62,860 nucleotides of DNA from contig CAYJWM010000003.1 in the NCBI GenBank assembly GCA_964373885.1, positions 1 through 62,860 on the forward strand, in the 5' to 3' direction. The DNA comes from an uncultured bacterium. GTDB taxonomy: Bacteria; Omnitrophota; Omnitrophia; Omnitrophales; Danuiimicrobiaceae. Every line of letters begins with the position of its first letter. The first letter of the stretch is position 1. Shown here in pieces: positions 25,752 to 36,965 of this stretch. The translations under genes were made by a program, and so were the position numbers. Under the pieces are notes generated by a model. That model saw only the letters and a list, made by a program, of their open reading frames with translations. It did not search any database and was not told the DNA's origin.

Positions 25752-28073
25752 ATGAAAGCCAAAAAACTTAAAGAAGAACGCATCAACGAAGCGATCGGAA
25801 TCCTTTTTCTTTTGGTCGGGATTTACACCTTTGTCGCGCTTTTGTTTTACCATCCGAACGATTCTGCCTTTTACACCTCTTACCCCAATAAGCCCTTTCG
25901 CAATGTGACGGGCGTGATTGGGGCCCAATGGTCTTATCTGCTCCATTTTTCGCTCGGTTGGAGCTCGTACAGCATCCCCGTACTGTTTTTATTTTGGGCC
26001 AGCTGCTTTTTTCTCCAAAAAGTCCCCTCCAAAAAATGGGTGGAATTTGCCGGCATCGGGATTGCCATCGCGGCATGTGCCACCTTGTTCAGTCTTTTCG
26101 TTCAGGAATCCTGGAAAGTTTCTGCGGGCGGGGTGGTGGGCTATTTTGCCGCTTCGAATTTGACGAAGTATTTCGGGATAGCGGGCGCGTTTTTTATCTC
26201 CATTTCGTGTCTCGGGATCGCGCTCCTGGTAGCCACTGACTTTTTGATTTATCCGTGGCTGGAACGTTTATGGAAATGGGGGGCGGAATCCGCCGAGAAG
26301 GCAAATTTTAGTTGGAATGCGAAAAAGACGTTTGTGAAACTGCCGAAACCGCTTGTGAAAAATCAGCTCAAGGAAAAACTCGCGGCATCGGACGGCCCCA
26401 AGGTCAAGAAATACAAAGAAGAACCCTCACCGGTCCCGGCTTCATCGCGGCTTGAGGCCAAAGATTTGGAAGCGGAAGCGTCGTTATTGAAACAGATTTC
26501 GGCGCGGATTCCAGCCATTAAAAAAGCGCAACCTGCCATCGAGGAGAAAAAAGAAATAAAAAAACAGCCGGTTGAGGAAATTTCAATTTCCGTGCCGGCA
26601 AATGAACTGGCCGCGAATTACCGCCTGCCGGACATTGATTTGCTGACGGTCCCGCAGGGCAAGAGAGCGGCCATTCAGGACGATTTGCAAGGCAATGCGC
26701 GTATTTTGGAGGAAACGCTCAGGGATTTCGGCATTGAAGTGAAAGTGACGGAAATCGAACAAGGTCCTGTAATCACCCGTTATGAAGTTCTTCCGGCCCC
26801 GGGCGTTAAAGTAAATCGAATCGTGAGTCTGGGGGACGACCTTGCGCTCGCCTTAAAGTCGACCAGCGTTCATTTTCTCGCCCCCATTCCGGGGAAAGCC
26901 GCGGTCGGGATCGAAATCCCGAACTCAAGCACGGCCACGGTTTATTTAAAAGAAGTGCTCGATTCCCGCGAATTTCGCGAAAAAAAGTACGAGCTGCCGC
27001 TTCTTTTAGGCAAAGACACGAGCGGGAAACCCCTCATTGCCGATTTGACCGAAATGCCGCATTTATTAATTGCCGGTGCCACCGGAAGCGGAAAAACCGT
27101 CTGCGTCAATTCGCTGATCGCGGGCCTTATTTTCAACAAATTGCCGACGGAACTGAAGTTCGTCATGGTAGACCCCAAAATGGTGGAAATGGCCGTGTAT
27201 AAGGACGTTCCGCACATGCTGGCGCCCGTGGTGACGGAGGTCAGGAAAGCGGGTGCGACGCTCAACTGGCTTGTGGCCGAAATGGAGAAGCGCTACAAAA
27301 TATTCGCCACCTGCGGTACGCGGAATATTCAGGCATTTAATCAACGGCCCGCCAAAGAGATCAAAGAAACTTCAGACGGAATACCGGTTCCGGGTTATCT
27401 GCCGTATATCGTATTAATCATTGACGAACTCGCCGATTTAATGGCGGTGGCCCAGGACAAGGTAGAGTCCGCCATTACGCGCCTGGCGCAGCTTTCGCGC
27501 GCGGTGGGAATTCATTTGATTCTGGCCACCCAGCGGCCGTCGGTGGATGTGATTACGGGCGTTATCAAAGCCAATTTTCCCGCCCGGATTTCGTTCAAAG
27601 TAGCTTCCAAGGTGGATTCCAGGACCGTGCTGGACGCGAACGGAGCGGACAAGCTTCTGGGAAAAGGAGACATGCTGTTTTTGAAACCGGGGGAGTCAAA
27701 ACCCATTCGCGGGCAGTCCACCTTTATTTCCGACGAGGAGATCAGTAAAGCCGTTCACTTCATTAAAGCCCAGCAGGGGCCGCAGTATCTTTCAGAGCTT
27801 GAGGCCATTCACAAAGGCGGCGCTTCCGTTCACGTGGCGGACAAGGATGAGCTTTATGATGAAGCGGTGCGGGTGGTTTTGGAAACGCGCCAGGCCTCCG
27901 TCTCGGTGCTTCAGCGCAAATTGCGTTTGGGTTATGGCCGCGCCGCGCGCATTATTGATATGATGGAACAGGAAGGGGTGGTGGGGCCTTTTCAGGGAGC
28001 CAAACCGCGCGAAATCCTGGTCGACAAAATCGAACCCGTTGCCGAATCCTCCGCTCAAGAATCTTCCGCGTAA
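25752..28073 (+). CDS. ftsK: DNA translocase FtsK
   Basis: 773 aa with N-terminal TM helices, a linker, a motor domain with Walker A GATGSGKT, and a C-terminal gamma winged-helix (VSVLQRKLRLGYGRAARIIDMME). Confidence 0.94.
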   Translation: MKAKKLKEERINEAIGILFLLVGIYTFVALLFYHPNDSAFYTSYPNKPFRNVTGVIGAQWSYLLHFSLGWSSYSIPVLFLFWASCFFLQKVPSKKWVEFAGIGIAIAACATLFSLFVQESWKVSAGGVVGYFAASNLTKYFGIAGAFFISISCLGIALLVATDFLIYPWLERLWKWGAESAEKANFSWNAKKTFVKLPKPLVKNQLKEKLAASDGPKVKKYKEEPSPVPASSRLEAKDLEAEASLLKQISARIPAIKKAQPAIEEKKEIKKQPVEEISISVPANELAANYRLPDIDLLTVPQGKRAAIQDDLQGNARILEETLRDFGIEVKVTEIEQGPVITRYEVLPAPGVKVNRIVSLGDDLALALKSTSVHFLAPIPGKAAVGIEIPNSSTATVYLKEVLDSREFREKKYELPLLLGKDTSGKPLIADLTEMPHLLIAGATGSGKTVCVNSLIAGLIFNKLPTELKFVMVDPKMVEMAVYKDVPHMLAPVVTEVRKAGATLNWLVAEMEKRYKIFATCGTRNIQAFNQRPAKEIKETSDGIPVPGYLPYIVLIIDELADLMAVAQDKVESAITRLAQLSRAVGIHLILATQRPSVDVITGVIKANFPARISFKVASKVDSRTVLDANGADKLLGKGDMLFLKPGESKPIRGQSTFISDEEISKAVHFIKAQQGPQYLSELEAIHKGGASVHVADKDELYDEAVRVVLETRQASVSVLQRKLRLGYGRAARIIDMMEQEGVVGPFQGAKPREILVDKIEPVAESSAQESSA

Positions 28074-28100
28074 AGTTCACAAAAAGTGAAAATGATTACA

Positions 28101-28249
28101 GCGGCGGGAATTTGCCGCAGGGCACCGGCGGTTTATTCGCTCCAGCGGCGAATAACCGCCTGTGCTCTCGCCATTCGAACTCGCCAAAAAACGGCGAGAC
28201 CAAGCTTCGAATGGCTCCGAGAACTACCCTGCGACGAAATTCCCGCCGC
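28101..28249 (+). repeat. about 149-nt multi-hairpin structured element, copy A (possible ncRNA or REP/MITE-like element)
   Basis: The outer stem GCGGCGGGAATTT...AAATTCCCGCCGC encloses two parts. The first is a hairpin, GGCGGTTTATTCGC-tccagcg-GCGAATAACCGCC. The second is a nested hairpin, GCCATTCGAA(CTCGCC-aaaaaac-GGCGAG)...TTCGAATGGC. Homologous in architecture to 32723-32871. Confidence 0.7.
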
Positions 28250-28338
28250 CAATAGTGATTAAAGCAGGGTAGGCAAAAACCTTTTCCCGAAGCGAATAGC
28301 GAATCTTTGTCGACTGCTTCGGAACGTTTCGTTAAATC

Positions 28339-28453
28339 GCAGCGAAGCAGTCGTCGTAGACGGCAAGGGAGCGGCCGAATCCTAAATGGTTCGGCCGAGG
28401 GCTCCCGCGATTTACGAAATCATTCCGAGGAGACAAAATTCGCGTTAGCGAGG
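28339..28453 (+). repeat. D-module repeat, copy 1 (GCAGCGAAGCAGTCGTC ... GCCGAGGGCTCCCGCGATTTA ... AGCGAGG)
   Basis: Shares a 28-nt block (3 mismatches), an identical 21-mer (28394-28414 equals 53182-53202) and the terminal AGCGAGG with 53153-53243. Carries an extra 26-nt hairpin. Confidence 0.65.
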
Positions 28454-28542
28454 GGGAAAATAGTTGTGAAACCTATGAAGCCTATCTATGGGCGTTTGTT
28501 TCACGCCTGTGATATGATAAACGCTTCAAAGGAGCTTATCTG

Positions 28543-30957: not shown

Positions 30958-32173
30958 AATTCTGACCATCGGTTCCGAGCTGGTCAGCGGAAAAACACTG
31001 AATACAAACGCCCATTTTTTATCCAAAGAAGTGAGCCAACTCAACATTGAAGTCACGCGTCATGCAAGCTGCAGGGATATTGAGCGGGATATTTTAGATG
31101 CGCTTCGTCAGGCCTACGCGCGCGCGGACCTTATTTTTGTGGTCGGGGGGCTCGGGCCCACACCGGATGATATCACCCGCGAAACCATCGCAAAATTTTT
31201 TCATTCCGGCCTCGCTTTTGATCGAAAACAATACGCCCGCATTGTCCGATATTTTAAGAAAAAGGGCGAAAAAATCCCTTTTATTACGAAACGGGAAGCT
31301 CATTTTCCTCAAGCGGCCACACCGCTCGTAAACCGCTTCGGCCTCGCTTTGGGGTTTTACGTTCGCCGATACGGAAAACTTTTAATTGCGCTTCCCGGAG
31401 TTCCCTCGGAGCTGGTTGGAATGTTTCAGACTTCCGTGGGTTCCTTGATCCGGCGAGTTTTTCCCGTCCGTGCTCCGGTCTACACTGTAGAGGCGCGGAT
31501 TGCCGGACTTTATGAAACCCAAATTATGGAAAAGCTTGGGTCTGGGTTTTTTAAAAACAGGGTGTTCGATTTCGGGATTTACCCGGAAATCGGGGAAGTG
31601 ACCATTCGGCTCAAAATGAAGGATAAAAAATTAGCAACTATTCTCCGGCGCGAACTTTGCCGCAAACTCGGGCGCTGGATTTATGGTTTTGGTTCCGAAC
31701 CGCTTCCCCAAATCGTAGGAGAAAAATTCACAAAGGCAAGAAAAACGCTCGCAGTGGCCGAAAGTTGCACCGGCGGTTTCCTCGCCAAGTGTTTAACCGA
31801 TTATGCAGGCGCTTCACGATATTTCCTGGGAGGTCTGGTGGCTTATTCCAATGAGGTGAAAAAGGTCGCGCTTGGAATTCCCAAAAAAATAATTCAGTCA
31901 GAGGGTGCGGTCTCCGGCGAAGTGGCTAAGCGCATGGCGGAAGAAATACGAAAACGAAACAAGGCATCCGTCGGCCTAAGCATTACGGGAATCGCGGGGC
32001 CTTCCGGCGGAAGTGCCCGAAAACCGATGGGCCTTGTGTTTGTTGCGCTTTCGGACCGCAAAAAAACAACTGCTTTTCAATTCCGTTTTTCAGGCAGCCG
32101 CGCGGGCGTCCGGCTTCATGCGGTTCAAAAAGCGTGCTGGCTTCTTTTGGAATGGCTCAAAAAGAACGGGTAA
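30944..32173 (+). CDS. cinA: CinA family protein (MoCF-like N-domain + nicotinamide-nucleotide amidohydrolase PncC domain)
   Basis: 409 aa. N-terminus EILTIGSELVSGKTLNTNAHFLS, C-terminal AESCTGG...ISITGIAGP. Confidence 0.88.
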   Translation: MPTCEILTIGSELVSGKTLNTNAHFLSKEVSQLNIEVTRHASCRDIERDILDALRQAYARADLIFVVGGLGPTPDDITRETIAKFFHSGLAFDRKQYARIVRYFKKKGEKIPFITKREAHFPQAATPLVNRFGLALGFYVRRYGKLLIALPGVPSELVGMFQTSVGSLIRRVFPVRAPVYTVEARIAGLYETQIMEKLGSGFFKNRVFDFGIYPEIGEVTIRLKMKDKKLATILRRELCRKLGRWIYGFGSEPLPQIVGEKFTKARKTLAVAESCTGGFLAKCLTDYAGASRYFLGGLVAYSNEVKKVALGIPKKIIQSEGAVSGEVAKRMAEEIRKRNKASVGLSITGIAGPSGGSARKPMGLVFVALSDRKKTTAFQFRFSGSRAGVRLHAVQKACWLLLEWLKKNG

Positions 32174-32724
32174 GAACGTTTCTGGCCATTGAATTGCAAG
32201 ACGCACTTAAGGAAGAAGCGTCTTTAGCGATGGAACCGATTCGTTCGAAAAATCCTCACTTTCGATTTATTCCTCCCCAAAATTGGCATTTAACCCTTCA
32301 TTTTTTTGGATCTCTTTCTCCGGAAACGCTTGAGGAAGTGAAAAAGAACTTGAAAGATGCCGTCCGCAAAGTAGTGCCTTTTTCAATTTGCTTAAAAGGT
32401 TTGGGCGTGTTTCCGTCGGAACGCGCTCCCCGCGTGCTTTGGATTGGCGTGGAAGGAGCCGGCGATCCGCTCGCGCGCTTAAAGGGGGAAATCGACGCCG
32501 CGGTCTTAAAAACAGGCCTTCCCGTCGAAGAAAGAAAGTTTCATCCCCATTTGACCGTCGCGCGGGTCCGGGAAGAGAGGAATCAAAAAGAAGTATTGTT
32601 TGATTCGTTTTCGTTTGCCGGCAAAATACGCCAAACGGTTGATCATCTCACTCTGTTTCGAAGCGAGTTGCTTCGCGGCGGAGCCAAATACACCGTTTTG
32701 GACACGATCCCGTTCAAATCTTAA
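32152..32724 (+). CDS. thpR: RNA 2',3'-cyclic phosphodiesterase (2H family, ThpR/LigT)
   Basis: Two HxT motifs (HLTLHFFG and HPHLTVAR). ATG at 32152 chosen inside an ORF open from 32134. Confidence 0.85.
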   Translation: MAQKERVRTFLAIELQDALKEEASLAMEPIRSKNPHFRFIPPQNWHLTLHFFGSLSPETLEEVKKNLKDAVRKVVPFSICLKGLGVFPSERAPRVLWIGVEGAGDPLARLKGEIDAAVLKTGLPVEERKFHPHLTVARVREERNQKEVLFDSFSFAGKIRQTVDHLTLFRSELLRGGAKYTVLDTIPFKS

Positions 32725-32871
32725 GAGGGGCGAGAACCGCCGTTCGGCATCGGCGGTTCGGCCGCTCCAGCGGCGGCCGACCGCCTGCGCTCTCGCCGTT
32801 CCGATCCGCCTTCGGCGGAACCGAGCTCGGAACGGCTGCGAGAGCTGCCTCACGTCAGTCCTCGCCCTCTT
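32723..32871 (+). repeat. about 149-nt multi-hairpin structured element, copy B
   Basis: The outer stem AAGAGGGGCGAG...CTCGCCCTCTT encloses two parts. The first is GGCGGTTCGGCCGC-tccagcg-GCGGCCGACCGCC. The second is GCCGTTCCGA(TCCGCC-ttc-GGCGGA)...TCGGAACGGC. Same architecture as 28101-28249 with compensatory stem changes. Starts inside the thpR stop codon. Confidence 0.7.
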
Positions 32872-33026: not shown

Positions 33027-33494
33027 GTGAAAAAACTCGGTGAAATTTTAATTGAGCAGGGAACGATTGTGCCCCGCCAGCTGGAGCAGGCGCTTGAACG
33101 GCAAAAACGGGAGCCGGGAAAGCTTTTAGGCAAGGTCATGATCGAAATGGGCCATGTGTCCGAAGAAGACATTGTGGTGGCGCTCGCCACGCAATTTAAT
33201 ATTCCGTATCTTCCCATCGCGAATTTTTCCGTGGATGAAAAGGTGAAGAAATTACTACCCCCCGAGTTAATCCGCAAACACCTCTGCGTTCCGCTTGACC
33301 GGATCGGAGATTTGTTTACGGTGGCGATCGCAGATCCGACGAATGAAGAAGCCATCCGCGAGATCGAACAGGCGACACACTGTAAAGTTCAAACATTTGT
33401 TGCGACTGTCTCCGAAATCACAAATGTGATTCAGCAATCGTTTGGCCTGACGGTTGACGGTTCGGCAAAGACCCAACCAACGTCAAACCCATGA
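33027..33494 (+). CDS. stand-alone T2SSE_N / MshEN-like domain protein (putative c-di-GMP receptor)
   Basis: 155 aa. Residues 3-56 form two tandem 24-residue units, KLGEILIEQGTIVPRQLEQALERQ and LLGKVMIEMGHVSEEDIVVALATQ. Both fit the MshEN consensus RLGxxLLxxGLLxxxxLxxxLxxQ. The remainder resembles the GspE/PilB N-terminal domain. Confidence 0.7.
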   Translation: MKKLGEILIEQGTIVPRQLEQALERQKREPGKLLGKVMIEMGHVSEEDIVVALATQFNIPYLPIANFSVDEKVKKLLPPELIRKHLCVPLDRIGDLFTVAIADPTNEEAIREIEQATHCKVQTFVATVSEITNVIQQSFGLTVDGSAKTQPTSNP

Positions 33495-35248
33495 CCAATA
33501 GGGGAGCTTCCATGTCCCTTGATGCGACAAATGAACGGCTGCTGAAAAAAATAGTCGCAAAAAAACTGCTCAAAGAAAGCGACGCAGCGCTGCTCCTTAA
33601 CGAAAAAGCCAATACCCAGCAAACACTTGTGGAAACGATTTTGCACCGCAAGCTTGTGACGGAAGAATCGCTGTGTTCGTTTTTGGCCAATGAATTTAAA
33701 TGCCCCATCGTCAAACTTTCCGTCTTCATCCCTTCCCAGGAAGCGCTTAATTTGATTCCGGCCAATTTTGCCCATAAAAACCGCGTGATTCCCGTCTCTT
33801 TTGAAAACCGGTCTCTTACGGTTGCGATGGAACGTCCGGATGACCTCCAATTGATCGACGATTTGCAGGCCATTACCGATATGCGGATTCGGGTAGCGGT
33901 TGCGTTCCCGAGTGAAATGACGCGTGCGCTGGAACGGTATTATGGAGCCAAAGGGGCGCCCCTATTGCCGCCGGCCGGAGAAAGCATTGAGGATTTGATT
34001 CGTATTGTACAGGAATCCAAGGCCAGCGAGAGGGAAGTAAAAACAGTGGAACTGCTGAAGCAGGCGCAGGAAACCCCCGTCATCAAAATTGCCAACTTGC
34101 TGATGGTGGAGGCCATTCGGCGAAGAGCCAGTGACCTTTTTATTGAACCGTGGGAAAACTCCGTACGGGTCCGCTGCCGCGTGGACGGGCTTTTGGAAGA
34201 GGTGCCGCCCCCGCCCAAAGCCGTGGGTTCGGCGCTTGTGTCCCGCTTCAAGGTAATGAGCCAGTTGGACATCGCCGAGCGGCGCATCCCACAGGACGGG
34301 CGGTTCCGCATCCGCGTCCAAAACCGGGAAGTGGACGTGCGTGTCTCGATTCTACCCACCGGTTTCGGAGAAAAAGTGTGTCTGAGAATTTTGGATAAAA
34401 AGGCGCAAGCGCAAAGTTTGGAGCGATTGGGATTTACCGTTTTGGAGCAGGACACCATCAAATCATGCGCCGTCAAGCCGCACGGGATGATTTTGGTGAC
34501 CGGACCTACCGGAAGCGGTAAAACGACCACGCTTTACTCCATTCTCAAGTTTTTGGATTCACCCGAGAAAAACATTACGACGGTTGAAGACCCGGTGGAG
34601 TATCAAGTGGACGGGATCAATCAGGTGAATGTCCGCGAATCCATCGGGCTCACGTTTCCGGCTTCACTCCGGTCGATTTTACGCCAAGACCCCGACATCA
34701 TTTTAATCGGGGAAATACGCGATCTGACGACCATGGACATCGCGATCAAGGCCGCCTTAACGGGGCATTTGGTATTGAGCACGCTTCATACCAATGATAC
34801 CGCAACCACCATTGCGCGCATTCTCAATATGGGAATTGAGCCGTTCCTGATCACTTCGTCCGTGCTCATGATTTCGGCCCAGCGCCTCGTGCGCCGCTTG
34901 TGCCAGGAGTGCAAGGCCGAGTATGTGCCGGACGCGAAGTTTTTAAAACGGCTGGAACTGGCGGACGGGAAGCATACTTTTTTCAAACCAGCAGGGTGCG
35001 GAAAATGCCGTTCGAGCGGATATGCGGGCCGGAGCGTGATCACGGAATTAATGCTGCTGACCTCCCATATCAAGGACATGATTGTGGCGCGGGCCGGCGC
35101 CGATGAGATCAAGAAAGCGGCAAGACAGGAAGGAATGAATACGCTGAGAGAGAGCGCGATTCAAAAAGCCCTTGCAGGGGAAACATCGCTGGATGAAGTA
35201 TTCCGGGTGACGGCGATGGACACGGCGCTCGCGGAAGGAGACGAATAA
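33491..35248 (+). CDS. type IV pilus / T2SS assembly ATPase, GspE/PilB class, copy 1
   Basis: 585 aa with an N-terminal T2SSE_N domain and Walker A GPTGSGKTT. Also has Asp box, Walker B ILIGEIRD, His box GHLVLSTLHTND and a tetracysteine CQEC...CGKC. ATGA overlap with the upstream gene; alternative ATG at 33512. Confidence 0.88.
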   Translation: MTNRGASMSLDATNERLLKKIVAKKLLKESDAALLLNEKANTQQTLVETILHRKLVTEESLCSFLANEFKCPIVKLSVFIPSQEALNLIPANFAHKNRVIPVSFENRSLTVAMERPDDLQLIDDLQAITDMRIRVAVAFPSEMTRALERYYGAKGAPLLPPAGESIEDLIRIVQESKASEREVKTVELLKQAQETPVIKIANLLMVEAIRRRASDLFIEPWENSVRVRCRVDGLLEEVPPPPKAVGSALVSRFKVMSQLDIAERRIPQDGRFRIRVQNREVDVRVSILPTGFGEKVCLRILDKKAQAQSLERLGFTVLEQDTIKSCAVKPHGMILVTGPTGSGKTTTLYSILKFLDSPEKNITTVEDPVEYQVDGINQVNVRESIGLTFPASLRSILRQDPDIILIGEIRDLTTMDIAIKAALTGHLVLSTLHTNDTATTIARILNMGIEPFLITSSVLMISAQRLVRRLCQECKAEYVPDAKFLKRLELADGKHTFFKPAGCGKCRSSGYAGRSVITELMLLTSHIKDMIVARAGADEIKKAARQEGMNTLRESAIQKALAGETSLDEVFRVTAMDTALAEGDE

Positions 35249-35249
35249 G

Positions 35250-36965
35250 ATGAAAGCCGCTTATTCTCCCACTCTGGTTGAGATTCTTAAAAAATCGCAT
35301 GCGGTTTCTGCCGAGAACTTGAAGCACGCCCAAGAGCTTCAAAAGCAAACGGGGAAAAAGTTAATTCATATTTTGGTGGATGAGGGGATGCTGAACGAAA
35401 AAGAGCTGACGATTTTGCTCAGTTCCACCCTCGGGATCCCCGCGTTAAACTTAAATTCGTATCGCGTCAATCCCGCAGTGGTGAAACTCATCCCGAGGAA
35501 AATCGCGGAGCGTTACGAACTTTTTCCGCTGGCCCATATCGGCGAATCCATTACGGTGGCCATGAGTGATCCGCTCGATGTGTATGCGCTCGATGATGTG
35601 AAGCAGATCACTCATTGCAAGGTGTGCCCCGTCATTTCACCTTCCAAAGACATTCAGTCGGCCATTGAAAATTATTATTCCGAAACGGTCAATTTCGATG
35701 AATTGATGGAGGATTTGGATCCGGATTCGGTGGAAGTGATCACCACCGCTCCGGGCAGGGAGGTTGCGGAAGAAAGCACGTCTCCGGCTGACGATGCGCC
35801 CGTGATCCGCATGGTGAATTTGATTTTGCAGGAGGCCATTAAAAGCCGCGCCTCGGACATACACTTTGAGCCGTTTGAAGACCGGCTGCGCATCCGTTAC
35901 CGTATCGACGGCGCTCTTCATGAAGCGTTTTTGCCTCCGCGCGAAATGTACAGCGCGCTCCTGACACGAATGAAGATTATTTCCGATCTCGACATTACGG
36001 AAAAACGGCTCCCGCAGGACGGCCGTTTCAAGGCGCGTTTCGACACCCGCGAAATCGATTTCCGGGTTTCCATACTTCCGATTTATCACGGCGAAAAAAC
36101 GGTGCTCCGAATTTTGGATAAGGCAAGTCTAAAGGGAAATTTGGATCAGCTTGGGTTTACGCCGGACAGTGTCGAAAAACTTCAGCAGGCCATTAAAAAA
36201 CCCTATGGGATGACGCTGGTGACGGGACCTACGGGAAGCGGGAAGTCTACGACCCTTTATTCCATTTTGAATCAAATGAATACGCTGGAGCGAAACATCA
36301 TGACCATTGAAGATCCCGTGGAATATCAAATCATGGGCATCACTCAAACGCAGGTGAATGCCGATATCGGGCTTAGCTTTTCCAACGGGCTGCGCGCGCT
36401 TCTGAGGCAAAGTCCGGACATTATTCTGGTGGGTGAAATCCGGGATACCGAAACGGCCGATATCGCGGTGAAGTCGGCGCTGACGGGACATTTGGTGTTC
36501 AGCACGCTTCATACCAATAGCGCGGCGGGCGCCATTTCGCGCTTGATTGACATGAATGTGGAGCCGTTCCTCATTGCTTCTTCGCTGATTGTGGTGACGG
36601 CCCAGCGCCTCATGCGCCGGATCTGCCCGCAATGCAGCGAGCCCTGCGATATTCCGGAGTCTTTGCTGAAGCGGCTGCCTCATAATTTGGCATGGCCCAA
36701 GGGAGCCGAAAAGAAGGGTTATCACGGGAAAGGGTGCAAGCAGTGCAAGAATACGGGCTACTACGGGCGGCTTTCCACGATGGAAGTGTTGATGATTGAT
36801 GAGGAAATCCAACAGCTGATCATCAATCGCAGGTCGGCGCATGAAATTGAGGCGCTCGGGCGCAAGAAGGGGATGCGCACGCTTTTTGAAGACGCGTTGA
36901 TTTCGTTTTTAAACGGCCGCACGACGCTTGAAGAAGTGTTCCGAATCACAACGTTTGAAGATTAA
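35250..36965 (+). CDS. pilB: type IV pilus assembly ATPase, GspE/PilB class, copy 2
   Basis: 571 aa with an N-terminal T2SSE_N domain, GPTGSGKST, ILVGEIRD, GHLVFSTLHTNS and a tetracysteine CPQC...CKQC. Directly upstream of pilC. Confidence 0.88.
   Translation: MKAAYSPTLVEILKKSHAVSAENLKHAQELQKQTGKKLIHILVDEGMLNEKELTILLSSTLGIPALNLNSYRVNPAVVKLIPRKIAERYELFPLAHIGESITVAMSDPLDVYALDDVKQITHCKVCPVISPSKDIQSAIENYYSETVNFDELMEDLDPDSVEVITTAPGREVAEESTSPADDAPVIRMVNLILQEAIKSRASDIHFEPFEDRLRIRYRIDGALHEAFLPPREMYSALLTRMKIISDLDITEKRLPQDGRFKARFDTREIDFRVSILPIYHGEKTVLRILDKASLKGNLDQLGFTPDSVEKLQQAIKKPYGMTLVTGPTGSGKSTTLYSILNQMNTLERNIMTIEDPVEYQIMGITQTQVNADIGLSFSNGLRALLRQSPDIILVGEIRDTETADIAVKSALTGHLVFSTLHTNSAAGAISRLIDMNVEPFLIASSLIVVTAQRLMRRICPQCSEPCDIPESLLKRLPHNLAWPKGAEKKGYHGKGCKQCKNTGYYGRLSTMEVLMIDEEIQQLIINRRSAHEIEALGRKKGMRTLFEDALISFLNGRTTLEEVFRITTFED

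What the first reader, a model, noticed from the sequence alone, without database searches (positions are those of the whole stretch)
28101..28249. Pair of about 149-nt multi-hairpin elements whose stems differ by compensatory substitutions (second copy 32723-32871)
Both elements lie immediately 3' of + strand genes (ftsK and thpR). They share one architecture.

**Shared architecture**
- A long closing stem.
- Hairpin 1, with the conserved loop TCCAGCG.
- A conserved linker TG(T/C)GCTCTC.
- A nested hairpin 2, with a 3-nt bulge on its 3' side.

**Paired positions change together**
- Hairpin 1: GGCGGTT-TATT-CGC/GCG-AATA-ACCGCC versus GGCGGTT-CGGC-CGC/GCG-GCCG-ACCGCC, four consecutive covarying pairs.
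- Hairpin 2: GCCATTCGAA/TTCGAATGGC versus GCCGTTCCGA/TCGGAACGGC, three covarying pairs.
- Apical stem: CTCGCC/GGCGAG versus TCCGCC/GGCGGA.
- The closing stems are entirely different in sequence, yet both are 11-13 bp helices.

Structure is therefore conserved while sequence is free. This is the hallmark of a functional RNA (or structured DNA) family rather than simple duplication. In copy B an extra upstream segment, AACCGCCG, can pair with the left arm of hairpin 1. That offers an alternative, mutually exclusive fold. I do not recognise the element as any Rfam family.
Basis: seen in the sequence. Interest (0 to 1): 0.66.

Follow-up and report, generated by a model that had tools for sequence, protein, structure and literature searches.

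The report
Conserved multi-hairpin mobile element family
The two 149-nt elements are real members of an undescribed, low-copy family of three-way-junction elements; the family occurs in Omnitrophota and in CPR/Patescibacteria, keeps its helices through compensatory changes, sits between genes or in frame inside mnmA and tgt, and behaves like a small mobile element.

Summary

- **Copies in the window.** Copy A (28101-28249) and copy B (32723-32871) are the only two copies. They score 136 and 142 bits with a family model; the next hit scores 11 bits.
- **Family.** Pattern scans recovered about 50 further copies in Patescibacteria and other uncultured-bacterium contigs. The window itself is from an Omnitrophota genome.
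- **Covariation.** On 42 distinct copies, 50 pairs in 6 helices are 90.9% paired, against 64% in shuffles and 39-46% when partners are slid. 41 pairs carry double changes.
- **Conserved sequence.** The loop UCCNGCG, the helix GCUCUC/GAGAGC and the bulge ACCRAGC are conserved.
- **Not catalogued.** There is no match in Rfam 15, plasmids, phages or viral contigs.
- **What it looks like.** It is not a gene-specific regulator, because neighbouring genes are diverse.
  - One subfamily sits in four different contexts.
  - A close relative lacks the core of copy B.
  - In CPR the element lies in frame inside mnmA and tgt, once as a sense plus antisense pair.
  - G-U pairs are nearly absent and neither strand is favoured.
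- **Reading.** I read it as a non-autonomous, structure-dependent mobile element, similar to Rickettsia palindromic elements. Its core is recognised in trans.
- **Open points.** A host-useful RNA module remains a serious rival, and the mobilising enzyme is unknown. The alternative fold proposed for copy B is not conserved.

The parts
28101..28249 (+). Copy A, whole element. It starts 28 nt after the ftsK stop and ends 294 nt before rimO.
   Evidence: 136.5 bits, E = 6e-40
28101..28124 (+). Copy A, 5' arm of closing stem P1/P1b. It pairs with 28226-28249.
   Evidence: helices 1 and 2 covary in the family
28127..28160 (+). Copy A, hairpin 1 (P2). It has a UU/A internal bulge and the conserved 7-nt loop TCCAGCG at 28141-28147.
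   Evidence: helix 3: 11 of 13 pairs with double changes
28161..28172 (+). Copy A, junction linker TGT plus the 5' strand of the nearly invariant helix P3 (GCTCTCGCC). It pairs with 28213-28224 (GGCTCCGAGAAC), which carries the 3-nt bulge TCC.
   Evidence: helix 4. The C-to-T change at the linker is matched by G-to-A in GAGAAC in copy A, L010 and L067 (CG:39, UA:3).
28173..28212 (+). Copy A, distal part of hairpin 2: P3b (ATTCGAA/TTCGAAT), the apical hairpin P4 (CTCGCC-AAAAAAC-GGCGAG) and the conserved 7-nt bulge ACCAAGC at 28199-28205.
   Evidence: helices 5 and 6
28226..28249 (+). Copy A, 3' arm of the closing stem.
32723..32871 (+). Copy B, whole element. Its first bases overlap the stop codon of the LigT/ThpR gene (32134-32724). 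It ends 155 nt before the MshEN-domain gene at 33027.
   Evidence: 142.3 bits, E = 1e-41
32752..32785 (+). Copy B, hairpin 1 (P2), with loop TCCAGCG at 32766-32772.
32786..32845 (+). Copy B, linker TGC and hairpin 2. The hairpin comprises P3 (GCTCTCGCC / GGCTGCGAGAGC), P3b, P4 (TCCGCC-TTC-GGCGGA) and the bulge ACCGAGC at 32820-32826.
32752..32848 (+). Core of copy B. It is absent from the syntenic locus of the closest relative (L068), where only diverged remnants of the two arms remain.
   Evidence: no model hit in L068-L070

Best explanation
The two elements belong to a previously uncatalogued family of small (about 150 nt), non-coding, low-copy mobile elements. The family occurs in Omnitrophota, in CPR/Patescibacteria and in other uncultured bacteria.

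**Fold.** Each copy folds, as a single strand, into a three-way junction:
- a long closing stem whose sequence is free;
- hairpin 1, with the loop UCCNGCG;
- hairpin 2, whose base is the nearly invariant helix GCUCUC/GAGAGC, with a 3-nt bulge and the bulge ACCRAGC.

**Proposed mechanism (inferred, not shown).**
1. The closing stem brings the two ends of the element together.
2. The invariant junction core is the handle recognised by an enzyme encoded elsewhere.
3. That enzyme inserts or excises the element. The Watson-Crick-only covariation and the lack of strand preference suggest that it acts on folded single-stranded DNA.

**After insertion.**
- The element is carried passively. In the window it is part of the intergenic transcript directly after ftsK and after thpR, where such a stable structure would act at most as a REP-like 3' hairpin.
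- In CPR it is read through in frame at surface loops of MnmA and Tgt, as Rickettsia palindromic elements are.

**Shown:** family membership, fold, covariation, diverse contexts, both orientations, presence/absence between relatives, in-frame copies.
**Inferred:** DNA-level mobility, a trans-acting enzyme, the role of the closing stem.
For: - **Fold and covariation.** 42 distinct copies: 90.9% of cells are paired, against 64.0% in shuffles (0/500 reach it) and 39-46% when slid. 599 double-change cells are seen against 194 in shuffles. All top mutual-information pairs are the nested helices.
- **Low copy number.** There are only two copies in 62.9 kb, and 1-2 per contig elsewhere.
- **The closing stem travels with the element.** One subfamily (L018, L050, L058 twice) has closing-stem arms about 80% alike. 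It sits next to unrelated genes: sugar dehydratase, GT4, SNase/ThiF and ThiF/QueF.
- **Diverse neighbours.** Neighbour genes are diverse overall, and no family recurs apart from the hosts mnmA and tgt.
- **Presence/absence.** L068 (RimO 88% identical; flanks aligned almost without differences) lacks the roughly 97-nt core of copy B. L072 mnmA lacks the core but keeps the arms.
- **Orientation.** About three quarters of copies are co-oriented with neighbouring genes and the rest are opposite. L078 mnmA carries a sense copy (87 bits) and an adjacent antisense copy (98 bits), both in frame. L019 has an adjacent inverted degenerate copy. L048 has another insertion inside hairpin 1.
- **No strand signal.**
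  - G-U pairs are almost absent: about 36 G-U against 57 A-C cells in variable pairs (counted).
  - One-side changes are rare.
  - The reverse strand folds better in 34 of 42 copies.
- **In-frame copies.** These are found in mnmA (L002, L003, L010, L038, L071, L074-L078) and tgt (L011, L012, L047). Two different reading frames are used.
- **Precedent.** In-frame palindromic elements of about 150 bp are known as RPEs in Rickettsia (PMC10969869, read).
Against: - **No enzyme found.** No transposase, integrase, reverse transcriptase or HUH gene lies next to any copy. No autonomous version was found.
- **No target-site duplication.** None of 3 nt or more is seen.
- **Conservation is reversed relative to ordinary MITEs.** The interior is conserved and the terminal inverted repeats are free.
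- **Preservation in place.**
  - Vertically inherited copies in orthologous mnmA genes (L010, L071, L077) keep all helices through compensatory changes.
  - They also keep the unpaired motifs.
  - A merely parasitic relic should not do this, so it points to selection in place and therefore to a function.
- **Orientation bias.** The 3:1 bias towards the sense orientation also fits an RNA role.
- **Very low copy number** is unusual for a MITE.
Confidence: 0.45

Rival explanations
1. It is a host-useful structured RNA module, cis-acting or released by processing. It would be a protein-binding, processing or stabilising element that works wherever it is transcribed. Its conserved core would bind a universal partner such as an RNase, a ribosome-associated factor or a tRNA-handling enzyme.
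For: - Unpaired motifs (UCCNGCG, ACCRAGC, the CUG linker) and the P3 helix are conserved between different phyla, in three reading frames and in intergenic copies.
- Orthologous mnmA copies found through the host protein alone, so not selected by motif, keep the fold and these motifs.
- About 75% of copies are sense to the flanking genes.
- Both window copies lie directly 3' of genes.
- Hosts or neighbours include three genes for modification of tRNA position 34: mnmA, tgt and queF.
- The apical hairpin is followed by ACCA, which resembles a tRNA 3' end (direct reading).
Against: - A well-preserved antisense copy lies inside mnmA, and about a quarter of copies are antisense.
- G-U pairs are nearly absent and the folding strand is not preferred, which is atypical for functional RNAs.
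- There is no common gene context.
- The core was lost without visible consequence in L068 and L072.
- There is no terminator U-tract and no promoter.
- ACCA varies to ACCG and ACCU.
Confidence: 0.28
2. It is a DNA-level site rather than a transposon. It would be a folded single-strand or cruciform recombination or processing site, comparable to integron attC sites or to phage or IMEX attachment hairpins, used by a chromosomal recombinase.
For: - As for attC, structure is conserved while stem sequence is free, and extrahelical bases are conserved.
- Covariation is Watson-Crick only, with no strand preference.
- Two direct copies flank a gene block in the window (rimO to thpR) and a single ThiF gene in L058.
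Against: - The ends carry no R''/R' boxes (RYYYAAC ... GTTRRRY) (direct reading).
- No integrase or recombinase gene is nearby.
- The flanked genes are syntenic housekeeping genes that are also present in relatives lacking the element.
- Copies occur inside reading frames.
Confidence: 0.1
3. It is a small catalytic or spliced RNA: a minimal intron-like element removed from mnmA and tgt transcripts, or a self-cleaving ribozyme carried by a mobile element.
For: - It sits at fixed positions between highly conserved motifs of conserved genes (ATGHY...KDQS in MnmA; after DSGGFQ in Tgt). This pattern is typical of homing introns and inteins.
- The closing stem juxtaposes the flanks.
- The junction core is invariant.
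Against: - No ribozyme or intron model matches.
- Every intragenic copy is stop-free and a multiple of 3 nt, as translation through it requires. This is weak evidence, because about 70% of frames are open anyway.
- The antisense intragenic copy in L078 could not splice as the same RNA.
- Removing the whole stem would also delete native hairpin residues.
- Most copies are intergenic.
Confidence: 0.06
4. It has no function. The helices would be kept perfect by replication template switching within palindromic DNA, and the apparent covariation would be a mutational by-product in decaying relics.
For: - Template switching can create and maintain hairpins and produce compensatory changes in one step (PMC8794818, found).
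- The pattern seen here (Watson-Crick only, symmetric between strands) is what that process predicts.
- In L072 the arms stay a perfect hairpin even without the core.
- Decayed versions exist.
Against: - Template switching cannot conserve unpaired loops, bulges and the linker across phyla and reading frames.
- It does not explain the shared three-way architecture.
Confidence: 0.08

Closest known systems
Rickettsia palindromic elements (RPE; Ogata et al. 2000, 2002, as summarised in PMC10969869)
   Same: - About 150 nt, non-autonomous and strongly self-complementary.
- Found both between genes and in frame inside unrelated housekeeping genes, where they are read through.
- No adjacent transposase.
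   Different: - RPEs are high-copy and confined to Rickettsia. Each RPE family encodes a conserved peptide.
- This family is low-copy (1-3 copies seen per contig).
- It spans distant phyla (Omnitrophota, several Patescibacteria lineages).
- It uses at least two reading frames.
- It has a conserved three-way-junction core with free stems.
- Sequence relatedness to RPEs was not tested.
Bacterial MITEs and REP/BIME-type extragenic palindromes
   Same: - Small, with no coding capacity.
- Terminal inverted repeats form a stem.
- Intergenic positions directly 3' of genes.
- Nested and adjacent inverted copies.
- Presence/absence between relatives.
   Different: - Conservation is reversed: the interior is invariant and the terminal repeats are free but complementary.
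- No target-site duplication of 3 nt or more.
- Very low copy number.
- REPs are 20-40 nt and occur in hundreds of copies.
Integron attC sites
   Same: - Structure is conserved and stem sequence is free.
- Unpaired or extrahelical bases are conserved.
- Recognition as a folded single DNA strand is plausible.
- Direct copies can flank genes.
   Different: - No R''/R' core sites and no IntI nearby.
- The flanked genes are syntenic core genes.
- The fold is a three-way junction with conserved internal helices.
- Copies occur inside reading frames.
IS200/IS605-derived palindrome-associated elements (PATEs) and HUH-mobilised hairpin elements
   Same: - Imperfect hairpins with extrahelical bases.
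- No target duplication.
- Single-strand biology would fit the Watson-Crick-only covariation.
   Different: - No TnpA, TnpB or RAYT gene was found near any copy.
- The two internal hairpins are unrelated to each other.
- A long closing stem is not a feature of that family.

Membership tests
Any Rfam 15 family (riboswitches, ribozymes, introns, sRNAs, leaders) | Score at or above the family's gathering threshold | tested here: not met
   - No hits on the window.
- Only chance-level miRNA-type hits with E above 1 on copy A.
- Only tRNAs on 20 related loci.
MITE | Terminal inverted repeats and no coding capacity | tested here: met
   The closing stem of 11-28 bp acts as the terminal inverted repeats. 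The element is about 150 nt and has no ORF of its own.
MITE | Target-site duplication flanking the element | tested here: not met
   40 copies were examined: 20 have none, 9 have 1 nt, 8 have 2 nt and only 3 have 3 nt or more. A short T or TC on both sides recurs, but this is not resolved.
MITE | Many dispersed copies per genome, related to an autonomous IS | tested here: inconclusive
   - 2 copies in 62.9 kb and 1-2 per contig.
- No related IS or transposase was seen.
- Whole genomes could not be scanned.
MITE / mobile element in general | Presence/absence at orthologous sites, and the same element in unrelated sites | tested here: met
   - The core of copy B is absent in L068, and the core is absent in L072 mnmA.
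- One subfamily sits in four contexts.
- Both empty sites keep the arms, so they look like internal deletions rather than unoccupied targets.
Rickettsia palindromic element-like (in-frame palindromic insertion) | Inserted in frame in protein-coding genes without stops | tested here: met
   Met for family members in mnmA and tgt. The two window copies themselves are intergenic.
Rickettsia palindromic element-like | Sequence homology to RPE families; conserved encoded peptide | not tested
   No RPE sequences were available in the tools. Peptides differ between reading frames, which argues against a conserved peptide.
Integron attC | R''/L'' and L'/R' boxes (RYYYAAC ... GTTRRRY) at the base of the stem; integrase in the neighbourhood | tested here: not met
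   The stem ends are unrelated to these boxes (sequences). There is no Phage_integrase among 84 neighbour proteins.
Intrinsic terminator | GC-rich hairpin followed by a U-tract | tested here: not met
   No T-run follows either closing stem. The scan reports only an internal chance hairpin.
Riboswitch / gene-specific cis-regulator | Constant position upstream of one functional class of genes | tested here: not met
   Neighbours include ftsK, rimO, lepA, ftsZ, secY, alaS, carB, pth, ruvB, hydrogenase and glycosyltransferases.
Functional structured RNA (generic) | Covariation supporting the helices | tested here: met
   covariation score 0.657 against 0.185 in shuffles (0 of 500 shuffles reach it); slid controls give 0.08-0.17.
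Functional structured RNA (generic) | Strand-specific signal (G-U tolerated, A-C avoided) and constant transcribed orientation | tested here: not met
   - About 36 G-U against 57 A-C cells.
- The antisense strand is more stable in 34 of 42 copies.
- Antisense copies exist.

The most novel reading that the evidence does not exclude
The element is a new kind of structure-guided genetic element. There are two forms this could take:
1. A minimal intron-like or homing RNA that is removed from mnmA and tgt messages.
2. A single-strand DNA transposon recognised only through an invariant three-way-junction core.

In either form it would be exchanged between ultra-small groundwater bacteria of unrelated phyla (CPR and Omnitrophota). 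It might also have a link to modification of tRNA position 34, given mnmA, tgt and queF.
Probability: 0.1. Interest if true: 0.93.

Novelty: new variant of a known kind. Interest (0 to 1): 0.68.

Why it matters
- **A missing catalogue entry.** This is a 150-nt element with one of the clearest covariation signals one can obtain from about 40 sequences, and it is absent from Rfam.
- **Shared between distant phyla.** Patescibacteria and Omnitrophota are two groups of ultra-small, largely uncultured bacteria. Sharing points either to horizontal exchange or to a universal partner that recognises the core.
- **An unusual set of properties.**
  - The element is kept intact inside the reading frames of two tRNA wobble-modification enzymes across deep CPR lineages.
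  - The conserved interior with free terminal stems, the Watson-Crick-only covariation and the very low copy number do not fit ordinary MITEs, riboswitches or attC sites.
- **Practical use.** The model built here can be used to annotate these insertions, which at present inflate MnmA and Tgt protein predictions in CPR genomes.

Tried and rejected
- **Rfam** at gathering and permissive thresholds, on the window and on 20 loci: nothing.
- **Full-text search for the conserved strings:** only unrelated primers. Keyword searches for CPR or Omnitrophota RNA motifs found no description.
- **Profile of the peptide encoded in one frame,** run against the 5.8-billion-protein set to list all in-frame hosts: 1 hit only, so the method was too insensitive.
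- **Pseudoknot or kissing-loop search by mutual information:** only nested helices came up. A possible loop-loop pairing in the long form (CAGCG/CGCUG) covaried in one sequence only, by reading the sequences.
- **Alternative fold of copy B:** unique to that copy.
- **Terminator or promoter function:** no signal.
- **Target-site duplication:** none that is consistent.
- **Orientation relative to replication, by GC skew:** confounded with gene strand and uninformative.
- **Carriers:** no match in plasmids, phages or viral contigs.
- **Recurrent unknown neighbour protein:** none.
- **The closing stem as a pre-existing host hairpin targeted by a smaller mobile core.** I considered this because both empty sites keep the arms. 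I rejected it because the arms are conserved among copies of one subfamily at four different loci.
- **Link to tRNA modification through the gene after copy A:** rejected, because that gene is rimO, not miaB.

Full report
**1. The observation**

- Copy A (28101-28249) starts 28 nt after the stop of ftsK (25752-28073).
- Copy B (32723-32871) overlaps the stop codon of the LigT/ThpR phosphoesterase gene (32134-32724).
- The two align at 81% column identity, with the differences placed as compensated pairs.
- Each folds much better than dinucleotide shuffles: -88.7 kcal/mol (z = -10.4) and -91.5 kcal/mol (z = -6.6).
- The 46-nt shared core pattern occurs twice in the window; none is expected.
- Rfam 15 has nothing at either threshold.

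**2. It is a family, and the fold is real**

*Collection.*
- A pattern from hairpin 1 plus the linker found 10 true copies in GTDB species-representative genomes. Seven lie in six MAGs titled Saccharibacteria, Colwellbacteria, Wolfebacteria or Parcubacteria; the other three are in MAGs titled only as uncultured bacteria.
- A second pattern used only the two strands of helix P3, so it did not select for hairpin 1. It found 55 metagenome loci, of which 12 are chance matches.
- Viral contigs, plasmids and phages gave nothing.
- The window's own organism is an Omnitrophota bacterium, judged from the named RimO homologues.

*Architecture shared by all copies.*
- A closing stem P1/P1b.
- Hairpin 1 (P2), with a UU/A internal bulge and the 7-nt loop UCCNGCG.
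- A short linker.
- The nearly invariant helix P3 (GCUCUC/GAGAGC plus GCC/GGC), with a 3-nt bulge.
- A variable helix P3b, the conserved 7-nt bulge ACCRAGC, and an apical hairpin P4.

*Statistics on 42 distinct copies (alignment A3).*

| Measure | Observed | Shuffled | Partners slid |
|---|---|---|---|
| Cells paired | 90.9% | 64.0% | 39-46% |
| Double-change cells | 599 | 194 | 97-200 |
| Covariation score | 0.657 | 0.185 | 0.08-0.17 |

- 41 of the 50 pairs have changes on both sides, and no shuffle out of 500 reaches the observed values.
- A mutual-information scan returns only the nested helices, with no pseudoknot.
- Within the otherwise invariant P3, the C-to-U change in the linker of copy A, L010 and L067 is matched by G-to-A in GAGAAC (CG:39, UA:3).

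**3. What the family does not look like**

- *Not a gene-specific regulator.* Neighbours include ftsK, rimO, lepA, ftsZ, secY, alaS, carB, pth, ruvB, typA, msrB, rnd, hydrogenase, glycosyltransferases and unknowns.
- *Not a terminator or a promoter*.
- *No switch.* The alternative fold proposed for copy B is unique to that copy.
- *No RNA-type strand signal.*
  - In variable pairs I count about 36 G-U against 57 A-C cells.
  - One-side changes are rare compared with double changes.
  - The reverse complement folds more stably in 34 of 42 copies.

The helices therefore evolve Watson-Crick to Watson-Crick. That is expected if both strands matter or if the structure is formed by DNA. It is also what replication template switching produces (PMC8794818).

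**4. Signs of mobility**

1. One subfamily (L018, L050 and two copies in L058) has core and closing-stem arms about 80% alike but lies in four different gene contexts. The stem therefore travels with the element.
2. The closest relative found, L068, has RimO 88% identical, the same gene order, and an intergenic flank that aligns with almost no differences.
   - It lacks the roughly 97-nt core of copy B and keeps only diverged remnants of the arms.
   - L069 and L070 also lack it.
3. At the position of copy A, relatives carry a GATase gene between ftsK and rimO. The window has lost that gene.
4. About three quarters of copies are co-oriented with the flanking genes and the rest are opposite.
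5. Copies cluster and nest.
   - There are two direct copies 4.6 kb apart in the window and 1.6 kb apart in L058.
   - L019 has an adjacent inverted degenerate copy.
   - L048 has a foreign insertion inside hairpin 1.
   - In a subset of loci the element is the central domain of a larger conserved structure of about 290 nt. That structure has 94 predicted pairs, 56 of them with double changes, and itself sits in varied contexts.
6. No transposase, integrase or reverse transcriptase is nearby, and no unknown protein recurs. There is no consistent target-site duplication.

**5. Copies inside genes**

*Sites.*
- In CPR genomes the element lies in the sense strand, in frame and without stops, at one fixed site of mnmA. 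This is the tip of the beta-hairpin between ATGHY and KDQS (L002, L003, L010, L038).
- It also lies at one fixed site of tgt, after the DSGGFQ motif (L011, L012, L047).
- Two different reading frames are used relative to the core, so the conserved nucleotides are not explained by a conserved peptide.

*An unbiased sample.*
- Searching with the host protein alone showed that this hairpin tip is an insertion hot spot in CPR MnmA.
- The basic form has 15-16 residues between the motifs. Many lineages have 57-66 residues that encode the element, and some have 119.
- DNA of five such genes, chosen without regard to the motif, shows every helix maintained, even in AT-rich versions.
- The loop UCCNGCG and the bulge are kept (ACCAAGC in four of the five, ACCGAGA in L077). 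Only the outer pairs of P3 decay.
- Orthologues (L010, L071, L077) differ by compensated changes, so the fold is being preserved in place.

*Deletion derivatives.*
- L072 has lost exactly the core and keeps the arms as a near-perfect hairpin inside the gene.
- L073 carries a different deletion.

*A sense plus antisense pair.*
- The 119-residue form (L078) contains a sense copy (87 bits) and, 25 nt further on, an antisense copy (98 bits). Both are in frame.
- An antisense copy that is equally well preserved is hard to reconcile with a cis-acting mRNA element.

**6. Interpretation**

- *Best fit (0.45).* A non-autonomous mobile element, recognised in trans through its invariant junction core.
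  - Its ends are brought together by the closing stem, and it probably acts as folded single-stranded DNA.
  - After insertion it is tolerated, either as a stable structure in the 3' UTR or between genes (the situation in the window), or as an in-frame insertion in surface loops, as for Rickettsia palindromic elements (PMC10969869).
- *Main weakness.* No enzyme was found, the copy number is very low, and the fold and unpaired motifs are preserved in place. Those points favour the main rival.
- *Main rival (0.28).* A host-useful RNA module with a universal partner.
- *Lesser rivals.*
  - An attC-like DNA site (0.10).
  - Pure template-switch maintenance without function (0.08).
  - A small spliced or catalytic RNA (0.06).
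- *Wobble-modification genes.* mnmA, tgt and queF recur as hosts or neighbours. This is suggestive, but it was noticed after the fact and rests on perhaps three independent events.

**7. Novelty and score**

- I found no description in Rfam or in the searchable literature.
- The element resembles RPEs and MITEs in behaviour. It differs in its reversed conservation pattern, its spread across phyla and its low copy number.
- I therefore rate it a new variant of a known kind, with interest 0.68.

Noticed in passing
window 28074-28542, compared with L068:3-794, L069:5267-5995 and L070:5273-6004: Syntenic Omnitrophota relatives have a GATase-domain gene (about 242-263 aa) between ftsK and rimO. The window has no such gene there. 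It has only copy A plus about 290 nt of non-coding DNA, and homology to L068 resumes about 70 nt before the rimO start.
   Followed up: partly
window 28304-28360: A further 18-nt inverted repeat (TCTTTGTCGACTGCTTCG / CGAAGCAGTCGTCGTAGA, 83% complementary, 21 nt apart) lies downstream of copy A. By eye there is also a hairpin CGGCCGAATCC...GGTTCGGCCG at about 28373-28397. These may be remnants of other small palindromic elements.
   Followed up: no
L005, L014, L015, L035, L037, L042, L064, L067 (for example L037:2050-2330): In these loci the element is the central domain of a larger conserved structure of about 290 nt.
- The 5' flank reads ACGCTCGCGAGGCGAAGCGGGCACGGTG.
- The 3' flank reads CGAGCGAAGCCGAGCGCGCGAGTGAG, followed by a covarying hairpin with the loop UCGCUG, then CGAACG.
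- It has no Rfam match and sits in varied gene contexts (carB, GT2, murJ, pth/rpsF, hydrogenase).
   Followed up: partly
L021 and L052, 3' flank of the long form: A different short repeat (CCCAATACyTATCrATTTC...GGAAATTGGGGCyGTCCTTGT) is inserted into the long form in two loci. L048 has yet another insertion inside hairpin 1. Small structured elements nest into one another here.
   Followed up: no
CPR MnmA proteins P0122-P0241, residues between GHY and KDQS: The tip of this beta-hairpin is a general insertion hot spot in Patescibacteria.
- Besides this element it holds low-complexity, repeat-like inserts such as SKFQIPNNSKFQIPNKSKIQNSKFKIQ.
- The segment between the motifs is 15 to 119 residues long.
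- These inserts inflate the predicted proteins.
   Followed up: partly
L058:2618-2776 and L058:4232-4390: Two direct copies (about 85% alike) flank a single ThiF-family gene. The second copy ends 3 nt before a queF gene. Together with mnmA and tgt as hosts, this makes three genes of tRNA position-34 modification near the element. It may be coincidence.
   Followed up: partly
window 33027-36965: Downstream of copy B there are three consecutive genes with MshEN domains; the second and third also carry T2SSE (PilB-like ATPase) domains. They are followed by a T2SSF gene. This arrangement is conserved in L068-L070.
   Followed up: no
all copies, P4 and the bulge (for example window 28180-28205): The apical hairpin (6-7 bp) is followed directly by ACCA in most copies, which resembles a tRNA acceptor minihelix with its NCCA end. 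The A varies to G or U in about a third of copies, so the resemblance may be superficial.
   Followed up: no
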